The notes beneath the pieces are model-generated. The model searched no databases, was not told where the DNA came from, and worked only from the letters and a program-made list of their open reading frames with translations. Both the position numbers and the translations under genes were made by a program. Of a stretch of DNA of 64,000 nucleotides, positions 39,169 to 39,956 are shown in pieces. Each line of letters opens with the position of its first letter. Position 1 is the stretch's first letter. The stretch covers positions 114,756-178,755 of the IMG/VR virus record IMGVR_UViG_3300032030_000012; one strand, given 5' to 3'. The DNA is from a virus. Lineage: Duplodnaviria > Heunggongvirae > Uroviricota > Caudoviricetes.

Positions 39169-39223
39169 AAGGTTAAAAAGTTTAAGAATTTTTTATAAAT
39201 CCCGTTCCATATTTTAAAAAATA

Positions 39224-39232
39224 TGTTATAAT
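39224..39232 (+). promoter_or_regulatory. sigma-A type extended -10 (TGTTATAAT) with -35-like TTCCAT 16 nt upstream
   Basis: Seen directly upstream of the only plus-strand gene. Confidence 0.5.
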
Positions 39233-39270
39233 ATATATAAGAAGAGTATGTATTGTCTTTTTGAAAGGAG

Positions 39271-39726
39271 ATGATTATCATGAAAAATATGAGACCTGGA
39301 TGGATTGATTCTAGATATAAAGATTATAGCTGGGGACAATTAAAAGATGCTCAAAATGTATGGGATTTAGCAAGAGCTCAAGAAAAACAAAATGAATTAT
39401 TAGAAGAACAAAATAGGTTATTAAATGGAAATAATTATAATACAACTTATAGATATAATACTTCAGATGATATTAGTATATTAGGATTATTATCTTTACT
39501 TTCAATTATACCAATAGCATTAGGATTTATAATGACATTCTTAACAATGGGAGATGGAACAGAACAAGGTATTAAAATTTTATTAGCAGGATTAATTTGT
39601 CCAGTATTACAAGGATTAATTCATTTAATCAAATCAATTAATAAATCTAATTATGAAAGAAAAATAGCTAGAGAAAAAGAAAAAGCTAGACAAGCTAGAA
39701 TTCAAAGAAAATTAAATAAAAACTAG
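39271..39726 (+). CDS. membrane protein, opposite-strand moron candidate
   Basis: 151 aa, 2-3 TM segments, own promoter, RBS AAAGGAG, own terminator. Confidence 0.6.
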   Translation: MIIMKNMRPGWIDSRYKDYSWGQLKDAQNVWDLARAQEKQNELLEEQNRLLNGNNYNTTYRYNTSDDISILGLLSLLSIIPIALGFIMTFLTMGDGTEQGIKILLAGLICPVLQGLIHLIKSINKSNYERKIAREKEKARQARIQRKLNKN

Positions 39727-39750
39727 AGGATTTAACCTCTAGTTTTTTGT
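39721..39750 (+). terminator. bidirectional rho-independent terminator
   Basis: Stem aactagagg/cctctagtt plus TTTTTT; T-rich on both sides. Confidence 0.65.
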
Positions 39751-39956
39751 TTCATATCATCATAAGCTTTTTGTTTAGCTTCTATTTCTTCTTGTTTCAT
39801 TTTTACTAATTTACTAAATACATATGATCTTTCATACTCATCCATATTTTCAGTATCTTGAAAAGAAATTCCATTCGATAGTTGACTTATTACTATTTGC
39901 TGATCCAATATAGTATTTAAATTTTCTTTAATGAAGAGAATTTCTTCTTTTTTCAA
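39732..39956 (-). CDS. hypothetical protein
   Basis: ORF track. Confidence 0.5.
   Translation of the reverse strand: MKKEEILFIKENLNTILDQQIVISQLSNGISFQDTENMDEYERSYVFSKLVKMKQEEIEAKQKAYDDMKQKTRG

What the first reader, a model, noticed from the sequence alone, without database searches (positions are those of the whole stretch)
39181..39760. Single opposite-strand membrane-protein gene embedded in the late tail operon (moron-like)
This is the only convincing plus-strand gene in 64 kb. It has its own sigma-A-type promoter (TTCCAT-16nt-TGTTATAAT), a strong RBS and a bidirectional terminator. It encodes a 151-aa protein with 2-3 TM helices and a basic C-terminal tail. It lies between the tape measure gene and the terminase/tail-chaperone genes. 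That architecture is typical of morons or superinfection-exclusion/immunity genes expressed independently of the late operon.
Basis: seen in the sequence. Interest (0 to 1): 0.5.

Follow-up and report, generated by a model that had tools for sequence, protein, structure and literature searches.

The report
Opposite-strand early membrane-protein gene beside tape measure
A real, separately switched gene for a small, fast-evolving membrane protein sits backwards between the tail-chaperone and tape-measure genes of an uncultivated ~200-kb phage; this is the slot where phage HK97 keeps its superinfection-exclusion gene, but its function here is untested.

Summary
Window 39280-39726 (+) encodes a 148-aa protein, not 151 aa. 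It has two predicted TM helices and a +9 C-tail. A housekeeping-type extended -10 promoter precedes it, and it ends in a bidirectional hairpin terminator.

The gene lies between two late transcription units. The chaperone unit ends at the shared terminator, and the tape measure gene (TMP) has its own late-type motif, GTAAAATATTATT. Its promoter type otherwise precedes non-structural genes in the window (helicase, exonuclease, tRNAs).

Every relative found keeps the same layout: chaperone, hairpin, opposite-strand island, promoter, late motif, TMP. This includes relatives whose gp26-like protein is only 50% identical. Only the cargo differs:
- window clade: one membrane-protein gene;
- L035: two genes, including a 219-aa two-TM protein;
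- sister clade: three or four TM-free genes, the last sharing only the N-terminal ~46 aa.

The coding sequence evolves much faster than its flanks (dN/dS 0.4-1.3 against 0.2-0.3). Base composition matches the phage, so this is not a recent insertion.

No known family matches, including HK97 gp15 and T4 Imm. The best guess (~0.3) is an early membrane protein that blocks TMP-mediated DNA entry. Verdict: a new member of the "reverse moron"/accessory-island kind, of moderate interest.

The parts
39194..39248 (+). Conserved promoter block. It contains an upstream box TATAAATCCCG; a -35-like GTTCCA (39204-39209); a 17-nt A/T-rich spacer; TG (39224-39225); the -10 TATAAT (39227-39232); and a conserved ATATATAAGAAGAG downstream.
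   Evidence: TGNTATAAT is an exact match. The block is about 90% identical in relatives whose protein is only 25-45% identical. The -35 position reads TTGACA in L035 and TTTACA in L012. The same 39-nt promoter type occurs at 57562-57600 (-).
39264..39270 (+). Shine-Dalgarno sequence AAAGGAG, 9 nt upstream of the ATG at 39280.
   Evidence: Read directly from the sequence. GGAG and its spacing are conserved in relatives.
39280..39726 (+). CDS of 148 aa. It comprises an N-terminal helical domain (conserved QNxLLxEQNRLL), an N/Y-rich linker, TM1 (~65-90), a 7-aa acidic loop, TM2 (~97-117) and a 31-aa basic tail (+9). Predicted topology is N-in/C-in.
39718..39747 (.). Bidirectional intrinsic terminator hairpin, shared by the plus-strand gene and the convergent 74-aa ORF. 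Both stop codons lie inside it.
   Evidence: It scores as a terminator on both strands. Folding z-score is -4.85. Stem changes in L011, L012, L016, L025 and L035 are compensatory.
39156..39168 (-). Late-type promoter motif GTAAAATATTATT, 30 nt upstream of the TMP start codon and back-to-back with the plus-strand promoter.
   Evidence: There are 13 exact copies in the window. All are on the minus strand and all lie upstream of genes. With up to 1 mismatch, 20 sites are found against 3.9 expected. The motif is conserved upstream of the TMP gene in L025, L029 and L035.
35824..39126 (-). Tape measure protein gene (1100 aa) with Gly/Ala-rich hydrophobic segments at about aa 540-660. It is mosaic and fast-evolving.
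   Evidence: The assignment rests on size, position after the chaperone genes and the hydrophobic core. It has no Pfam or PHROG hit.
39732..39956 (-). 74-aa ORF (85-87 aa in relatives, where it overlaps the 3' end of the gp26-like gene). It may be the second tail-chaperone frame. It converges on the shared terminator.
39964..40770 (-). gp26-like baseplate-hub/tail-assembly protein (PF12322 T4_baseplate) with its own late-type motif at 40799-40811.
57562..57600 (-). Second copy of the same promoter type (TATAAATCACGTTACTATTTTTAAAAAATATGTTATAAT). It drives a 115-aa ORF (57210-57557) in the tRNA-rich non-structural region.
13489..13525 (-). Third copy of the box (AAATCTCGTTCCAT-16-TATAAT), upstream of the DNA helicase gene (11528-13423).

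Best explanation
SHOWN at sequence level (about 0.9):
- Window 39280-39726 (+) is a genuine gene and its own transcription unit.
- A housekeeping (sigma-70/sigma-A-type) extended -10 promoter fires away from the TMP gene's late-type promoter.
- Transcription ends at a hairpin that also terminates the convergent chaperone unit.
- The product is a 148-aa inner-membrane protein. It has a cytoplasmic N-terminal helical domain, a tight two-TM hairpin, and a cytoplasmic basic tail.

INFERRED (about 0.7):
- Its promoter class otherwise precedes replication, nucleotide-metabolism and tRNA genes in this window, while structural genes carry a different motif. Host RNA polymerase therefore probably expresses it early or in mid-infection, independently of the tail genes around it.

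INFERRED BY ANALOGY (about 0.3; this is the confidence given for the whole statement):
- It inserts into the cytoplasmic membrane of the infected cell.
- There it interferes with the membrane-insertion or channel-forming step of incoming tape measure proteins.
- This would be superinfection exclusion or immunity, as for HK97 gp15 and T4 Imm, and like the opposite-strand immunity genes of pore-forming colicins.
- Its rapid, mosaic evolution would then reflect an arms race with competing phages.
For: Real gene, promoter, RBS and terminator.

Promoter classes:
- The late motif GTAAAATATTAWT has 13 exact copies, all on the minus strand upstream of genes, concentrated between 18.9 and 49 kb.
- 7 of the 10 TGTTATAAT sites are intergenic and correctly oriented. 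They precede the SbcD, exonuclease, tRNA-operon, 115-aa and plus-strand genes.
- The ATCnCGTTnC box is shared with the helicase and 115-aa ORF promoters.
- L035 has a canonical TTGACA-17-TATACT at the equivalent place.

Conserved slot: every relative has the same layout.

Fast evolution:
- The CDS is 53-73% identical at nucleotide level, against 85-95% for the flanks and about 90% for the promoter.
- dN is 0.35-0.68 against about 0.15 for sheath, tube and gp26-like, at similar dS.
- The TMP is also mosaic and fast-evolving.

Analogues:
- HK97 gp15 lies between the chaperone and TMP genes. It is a small inner-membrane protein, and its exclusion depends on the tail region of the incoming phage (PMC3594210).
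- T4 Imm binds the TMP (bioRxiv 10.64898/2026.03.06.709160).
- Immunity genes of ionophoric (pore-forming) colicins lie on the opposite strand with their own promoter (PMC9517006).
Against: - There is no expression or phenotype data.
- No homology to gp15 (hhalign probability 0.3%) or to Imm (0.1%).
- No hit to any Pfam, PHROG, PADLOC or PDB family or to a viral fold.
- In the sister clade (L025, L029, L032-L034) the island has no TM protein at all, although those TMPs keep their hydrophobic segment.
- The shared part of the family is the cytoplasmic N-terminal domain, not the TM hairpin.
- Only about 7 residues are exposed outside the membrane.
- Divergence of the plus-strand gene and of the TMP is not obviously coupled. 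Against L007 the gene is 84% identical and the TMP 49%.
- The timing inference rests on motifs only.
Confidence: 0.3

Rival explanations
1. An early host-takeover, anti-defence or regulatory protein. It would act on the cytoplasmic side through the conserved N-terminal helical domain. The TM hairpin would only be a membrane tether that some lineages have exchanged for a long soluble coiled coil.
For: - The N-terminal ~46 aa are the only part shared with the 289-329-aa TM-free proteins at the same slot in L025-type phages.
- C-terminal architecture is modular: a basic tail, a third TM, or a long coiled coil.
- Nearly all the protein mass is predicted to be cytoplasmic.
- An early-type promoter and fast evolution are typical of host-interaction genes.
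Against: - Within the window clade the TM hairpin and loop are the most conserved part, near-invariant. The extreme N-terminus comes in three unrelated versions.
- No partner or motif was identified.
- The N-domain similarity is short: E 6e-4 pairwise and 1.2e-4 with the profile.
Confidence: 0.25
2. A producer-side tail-assembly or self-protection factor. This membrane protein would keep the phage's own hydrophobic TMP, or the hub assembly, from damaging or engaging the membrane of the cell making it. That would explain why it is kept next to the chaperone and TMP genes.
For: - Synteny with the chaperone and TMP genes is strict, down to 50% gp26-like identity.
- The TMP has TM-like segments.
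- The arrangement resembles colicin immunity genes.
Against: - It has a different promoter class from all tail genes.
- Its evolutionary rate is far higher than that of the assembly proteins.
- The sister clade manages with no membrane protein at this site.
Confidence: 0.12
3. A holin, antiholin or lysis-timing protein. A small protein with two or three TM helices and a highly basic C-terminus would accumulate in the membrane and control lysis.
For: Two TM helices, an N-in/C-in prediction, a +9 C-tail and a size of 148 aa. No canonical lysis cassette was seen in the parts of the window that were annotated.
Against: - No holin family hit in Pfam or PHROGs.
- No adjacent endolysin.
- The promoter is of the early/middle type, not the late motif.
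- Some homologues lose the basic tail or all TM helices.
- A 64-aa cytoplasmic N-domain is atypical.
- Only 64 of about 205 kb was inspected, so a lysis cassette may lie elsewhere.
Confidence: 0.07
4. Not a functional protein gene. It would be a chance ORF, or a spacer whose only role is to separate two late operons.
For: dN/dS is close to 1 in the more distant comparisons.
Against: - The ORF is intact in all contigs.
- The TM core is invariant.
- dN/dS is 0.40 against the nearest relative.
- Codon usage is native.
- The RBS, promoter and terminator are conserved.
Confidence: 0.02

Closest known systems
HK97 gp15 moron (YebO-like superinfection exclusion protein)
   Same: It occupies the same slot, between the tail assembly chaperone gene(s) and the TMP gene. 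It is a small inner-membrane protein with a charged helical cytoplasmic part, and it has its own terminator and an independent transcription unit (PMC3594210).
   Different: - No sequence relationship (hhalign probability 0.3%).
- gp15 is 62 aa with one TM helix and is co-oriented with the tail genes. It is expressed from a prophage and is absent from close relatives.
- Here the protein is 148 aa with two TM helices, on the opposite strand, and present in every relative.
- The phage here is a ~200-kb genome with no sign of lysogeny. No relative of the protein was found in 185,579 species' genomes.
T4 Imm (immunity to superinfection)
   Same: It is a small polytopic inner-membrane protein of a contractile-tailed phage with T4-like tail genes. 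It is made early, and it is reported to bind the TMP and block genome translocation (bioRxiv 10.64898/2026.03.06.709160).
   Different: - No homology (hhalign probability 0.1%; no PF14373 hit).
- T4 imm lies among replication genes, between genes 42 and 43, and not next to gene 29.
- Early timing is only inferred here.
Immunity genes of pore-forming (ionophoric) colicins
   Same: A small inner-membrane protein is encoded on the opposite strand, next to the gene for a membrane-inserting protein, and has its own promoter (PMC9517006).
   Different: The biological system is different (plasmid bacteriocin operons). No sequence similarity was detected in the Pfam scans. The resemblance is architectural only.
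'Reverse morons' and accessory-gene hot spots in tail modules (for example HK97 gp23)
   Same: An oppositely oriented gene with its own promoter and terminator is set among tail genes. The HK97 record annotates gp23 as a 'reverse moron product' with its own terminator.
   Different: Here the site, promoter and terminator are conserved across a whole clade, and only the cargo changes (1, 2 or 3-4 genes). Composition is native to the phage.

Membership tests
Moron (independent transcription unit added to a phage genome) | Own promoter upstream of the gene | tested here: met
   An extended -10 TGTTATAAT sits in a conserved block. A canonical TTGACA-17-TATACT occupies the equivalent site in L035. 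This is sequence-level evidence only; there are no transcript data.
Moron (independent transcription unit added to a phage genome) | Own terminator downstream | tested here: met
   Hairpin at 39718-39747 on both strands, z-score -4.85, with compensatory changes in relatives.
Moron (independent transcription unit added to a phage genome) | Extra DNA that closely related phages lack | tested here: not met
   Every related locus has an opposite-strand island at this junction. Cargo does differ between clades (1, 2 or 3-4 genes).
Moron (independent transcription unit added to a phage genome) | Nucleotide composition different from the surrounding genes | tested here: not met
   GC is 0.248 against 0.271 for the window. 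GC3 is 0.087 against 0.06-0.12 for other genes. CAI-like score is 0.87.
Moron (independent transcription unit added to a phage genome) | Expression from a repressed prophage | not testable with these tools
   No integrase was seen in the ORFs scanned (about 50 of 77). No relative of the protein was found in 185,579 species' genomes.
HK97 gp15 / YebO family | Sequence homology to gp15/YebO (PF13974) | tested here: not met
   hhalign probability 0.3%. The window protein has no PF13974 hit, and only 1 of 13 family members reaches E 0.019, below threshold.
HK97 gp15 / YebO family | Position between the tail chaperone and TMP genes | tested here: met
HK97 gp15 / YebO family | Blocks DNA entry of superinfecting phage in a manner that depends on the incoming phage's tail region | not testable with these tools
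   This needs a cultured host and phage.
T4 Imm (PF14373 Imm_superinfect) | Sequence homology | tested here: not met
   hhalign probability 0.1%. No Pfam hit at E<=1 for any of 13 members.
T4 Imm (PF14373 Imm_superinfect) | Binds the TMP helical-bundle domain in the membrane | not testable with these tools
   No complex prediction or experiment is available here.
Holins | Small protein with at least one TM helix and a charged C-terminus | tested here: met
   Two TM helices and a +9 tail.
Holins | Membership of a described holin family | tested here: not met
   No holin family appears in the Pfam or PHROG scans at E<=1.
Holins | Genetic linkage to an endolysin (lysis cassette) and late expression | tested here: not met
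   The neighbours are chaperone and TMP genes. The promoter is of the non-late class. Only 64 kb of about 205 kb was examined.
Pore-forming colicin immunity proteins | Opposite-strand gene with its own promoter beside the pore-former gene | tested here: met
   The promoter diverges from the TMP gene. This is architecture only (PMC9517006).
Pore-forming colicin immunity proteins | Sequence homology to colicin immunity families | tested here: not met
   None appears among the Pfam hits at E<=1.

The most novel reading that the evidence does not exclude
The chaperone-TMP junction of this clade of ~200-kb uncultivated phages is a dedicated early-expressed 'cargo slot'. A fixed divergent promoter pair and a shared bidirectional terminator frame interchangeable, rapidly evolving genes. 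The two-TM members would form a previously undescribed family of TMP-directed immunity (superinfection-exclusion) proteins. They would be organised like colicin immunity genes and would have arisen independently of HK97 gp15 and T4 Imm.
Probability: 0.2. Interest if true: 0.55.

Novelty: new member of a known kind. Interest (0 to 1): 0.35.

Why it matters
If the exclusion reading is right, three unrelated protein families would have converged on one solution. These are HK97 gp15, T4 Imm and this family. The solution is a tiny inner-membrane protein that stops the TMP from opening a DNA channel. In two of the three families the gene sits directly at the TMP gene. That would make "small membrane gene at the chaperone-TMP junction" a useful annotation heuristic. 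It would also give a handle on DNA entry in large uncultivated phages that are probably Firmicutes-infecting.

Whatever the function, the analysis yields two promoter classes for this phage, a late motif GTAAAATATTAWT and a housekeeping-type extended -10. These can be used to time-class its roughly 200 kb of mostly unknown genes.

Tried and rejected
Searches that found nothing:
- Megablast of 9 kb around the gene, and tblastn of the protein and of the sheath, against 50,697 phage records.
- Pfam, PHROGs and PADLOC on the protein and on 13 family members. Only sub-threshold, compositional TM hits to DUF4064 and DUF2207_C appeared.
- A PDB profile search, which gave only weak leucine-zipper (Max) similarity to the N-helix.
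- AlphaFold2, which gave an all-helical model of low confidence (pLDDT 63). Foldseek against viral structures found nothing at E<1.
- A scan of 185,579 species' genomes, so no prophage copy and no host clue.
- A scan of viral contigs with the promoter pattern, which found only the same locus.

Ideas considered and dropped:
- A dual-start (holin-like) motif MIIMKNM. The first ATG abuts the Shine-Dalgarno sequence, so it is unlikely to be used.
- The minus-strand TGGTATAAT inside the gene (39505-39513) as the TMP promoter. It falls in the invariant SIIPI codons, and the TMP gene has its own late motif at 39156-39168.
- An antisense-regulator role. The transcript diverges from the TMP gene and overlaps the 74-aa ORF only within the terminator.
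- Recent horizontal acquisition. The composition is native.
- Tight co-evolution with the TMP. It is not evident in the few lineages available.

Full report
**What is there**

The window has about 27% G+C and every credible gene lies on the minus strand. PHROG, Pfam and tblastn annotation gives:
- GroEL, dUTPase, SbcCD, helicase, exonuclease and thymidine kinase (1-19 kb);
- portal (19.6-21.4 kb);
- a T4-like contractile-tail module (22-49 kb), including an M23/NlpC-P60 tail lysin, a dockerin-bearing 638-aa protein, sheath, tube, a gp13-like protein and a gp26-like protein (PF12322);
- a region with seven tRNAs (53-59 kb).

Identical copies of the plus-strand protein occur on 22 public contigs of up to 205 kb. 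The source is therefore an uncultivated phage of about 200 kb. It has no megablast match among 50,697 deposited phage genomes over the 9 kb tested.

**Checking the observation**

The plus-strand ORF is real.
- The ORF listing starts it at 39271 (151 aa). That ATG abuts the Shine-Dalgarno sequence AAAGGAG (39264-39270).
- The ATG at 39280 lies 9 nt downstream, and all gene calls on public contigs give 148 aa.
- Hydropathy finds two TM helices (~65-90 and ~97-117), joined by a 7-aa acidic loop.
- The last 31 residues carry +9 net charge, so the positive-inside rule predicts N-in/C-in.
- AlphaFold2 gives an all-helical, low-confidence model: helices 18-49, 67-89 and 94-146, pLDDT 63.
- Codon usage is native (CAI-like 0.87 against 0.29-0.63 for the antisense frames). 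GC3 is 0.087, like other genes.

The terminator at 39718-39747 is detected on both strands. It folds at -15.2 kcal/mol with z = -4.85. Relatives keep it through different, complementary stems.

A plain sigma-70 consensus scan is uninformative in this AT-rich DNA (59 sites against 69 expected). Conservation supports the promoter instead.
- The ~55-nt block ATAAATCCCGTTCCATxTTTTAAAAAATxTGnTATAATATATATAAGAAGA is about 90% identical in phages whose protein is only 25-45% identical.
- The 'n' of TGnTATAAT is the base that varies: T, A or G.
- The -35 position reads GTTCCA here, GTTACA in L025/L029 and TTTACA in L012.
- L035 has a perfect TTGACA-17-TATACT.
- The register is therefore GTTCCA(39204-09)-17-TATAAT(39227-32) with TG at 39224-25.

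**Transcription architecture (inferred from motifs)**

Intergenic regions upstream of structural genes share GTAAAATATTA(A/T)T. There are 13 exact copies, all on the minus strand and all upstream of genes. With up to one mismatch, 20 sites are found against 3.9 expected. One copy lies 30 nt upstream of the TMP start (39156-39168). Others precede the gp26-like gene (40799-40811) and TerL (42973-42985).

TGTTATAAT behaves differently.
- Seven of its ten occurrences are intergenic and correctly oriented.
- They precede SbcD, the exonuclease, an 81-aa ORF, a tRNA operon, a 115-aa ORF, a 1.6-kb ORF-free region, and the plus-strand gene.
- By my arithmetic, at least 7 of 10 falling in the ~13% of the window that is intergenic has a probability of about 7e-5.
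- The plus-strand gene's promoter also shares an upstream box (ATAAATCnCGTTnC...) with the promoters of the 115-aa ORF (57562-57600) and the DNA helicase (13489-13525).

The gene is therefore not inside one late operon. The upstream late unit ends at the shared hairpin, the TMP unit starts at its own late-type motif, and the plus-strand gene occupies the gap under a non-late promoter.

**Relatives**

The word-indexed search found 9 homologues. A full HMM search of 1.84 billion representative proteins found only 10 hits. The family comprises:
- 124-151-aa proteins with a conserved QNxLLxEQNRLL helix, an N/Y-rich linker and the TM hairpin, including an invariant Pro in TM2;
- after the hairpin, either a basic tail or a third TM helix;
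- three unrelated versions of the first ~30 residues.

Every member with recoverable context sits at the same place and in the same opposite orientation.

Using the gp26-like protein as a probe reached more distant phages.
- At 63-64% gp26-like identity (L025-L029, L032-L034), the same promoter, terminator and TMP late motif frame three or four TM-free genes.
- The last of these genes (298-329 aa) shares only the N-terminal ~46 residues with the window protein, then continues as a long K/E-rich coiled coil.
- At 50% identity (L035), the island has two genes. One is a 219-aa protein with an N-helix, two TM helices and a ~90-aa charged tail. Its similarity to the family is only weak (hhalign probability 13%).

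The site is thus a fixed slot with exchangeable cargo.

**Evolutionary rate**

Sliding-window identity shows flanks at 85-95%, the promoter at ~90% and the CDS at 53-73%. Nei-Gojobori estimates give dN/dS of 0.40 (closest relative) to 0.8-1.3 (more distant) for the plus-strand gene. Sheath, tube, gp26-like and the 74-aa ORF give 0.17-0.29 at similar dS. The TMP is also mosaic and fast-evolving (dN/dS 0.65).

**Function**

No database gives a lead.
- Nothing significant in Pfam, PHROGs, PADLOC, PDB sequences or BFVD folds.
- No relative of the protein in 185,579 species' genomes.
- No source-given names.

The closest known cases are architectural.
- HK97 gp15, the original moron, lies between the tail-chaperone and TMP genes. 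It is a small inner-membrane protein that blocks DNA entry, and the block depends on the tail region of the incoming phage (PMC3594210).
- T4 Imm is reported to bind the TMP (bioRxiv 10.64898/2026.03.06.709160).
- Immunity genes of ionophoric (pore-forming) colicins lie on the opposite strand with their own promoter (PMC9517006).

Direct tests show no homology to gp15 (probability 0.3%) or Imm (0.1%).

I therefore commit, at about 0.3, to this reading: an early-made membrane protein that interferes with TMP-mediated channel formation by superinfecting phages.

The main rival (0.25) is a cytoplasm-facing early function carried by the shared N-domain, with the membrane hairpin as an optional tether. 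The TM-free sister-clade proteins support this rival. So does the persistence of the TMP hydrophobic segment in phages that have no membrane protein in the island.

Less likely readings:
- A producer-side assembly or self-protection role (0.12).
- A holin-type role (0.07). Arguments against it are the lack of a family hit, no adjacent endolysin, the non-late promoter, and loss of the tail or the TM helices in homologues.
- A non-functional ORF (0.02), which is effectively excluded.

**Verdict**

"Moron-like" is right for the independent, oppositely oriented transcription unit and the fast-evolving cargo. It is wrong for "insert that relatives lack" and for foreign composition. This is a new, uncharacterised member of a known kind: a reverse moron or accessory island in a tail module. 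Interest is moderate.

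Noticed in passing
window 40828-42957 (-): The terminase large subunit gene lies between the tail tube and gp26-like genes. The 316-aa piece is 33% identical to annotated TerL of Rhizobium jumbo phages. The gene is broken into 3-4 overlapping ORFs (113 + 316 + 99 + 217 aa), and the same breaks recur on independent contigs. In the L025 clade it is one ORF of 712-717 aa. In L010, L016 and L033 it is 773-913 aa; L010 and L016 carry faint Hom_end/LAGLIDADG hits, suggesting an intein or homing-endonuclease insert. It could be a genuinely split gene, programmed frameshifting or decay.
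   Followed up: partly
window 13424-15009 (-): A 1.6-kb stretch with no ORF longer than 45 aa on either strand. It lies directly downstream of a TGTTATAAT promoter (14991-14999) and contains locally G+C-rich, hairpin-rich sequence. The segment 13790-14390 folds with z = -3.9. No Rfam family matches, even at E<=1; only spurious microRNA and snoRNA hits appeared. It is a candidate large non-coding RNA.
   Followed up: partly
window, 13 sites (e.g. 22099, 23213, 25806, 28388, 35739, 39156, 40799, 42973, 48969; all minus strand): A candidate late-promoter motif GTAAAATATTA(A/T)T lies 15-120 nt upstream of structural genes. It is strand-specific and far above chance. The polymerase or sigma factor that reads it is unknown.
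   Followed up: partly
window 39732-39998 (-): The 74-aa ORF has no ATG. In relatives the homologous 85-87-aa ORF starts MNY(S)IPVYR and overlaps the 3' end of the gp26-like gene by 26 nt. In the window the same peptide (NYLIPVYRR) is still encoded in that overlapping frame, upstream of the TTG start. This suggests a G/GT-like programmed frameshift or a non-ATG start.
   Followed up: partly
window 33707-35623 (-): A 638-aa protein just downstream of the TMP gene carries four dockerin type I repeats (E 8e-27) and EF-hand-like motifs. This points to a cellulosome-bearing Clostridia-type host, or to attachment to cohesin-bearing surfaces.
   Followed up: no
window 837-2468 (-) and 53486-58715 (-): A phage-encoded GroEL homologue (PHROG 5725, E 3e-116), and seven tRNA genes: Asn, Gln, Cys, Trp, Tyr, Ser and Pro.
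   Followed up: no
window 5154-5608 (-) and 49840-50415 (-): Several small minus-strand ORFs with predicted TM segments: 82 aa with 2-3 TM helices, 69 aa, 58 aa and 67 aa. None is next to a recognisable endolysin. No lysis cassette was found in the parts of the window annotated.
   Followed up: no
window 57210-57557 (-): A 115-aa ORF with no family hit is driven by a promoter identical to the plus-strand gene's at 34 of 39 positions. It may be co-regulated with that gene.
   Followed up: partly
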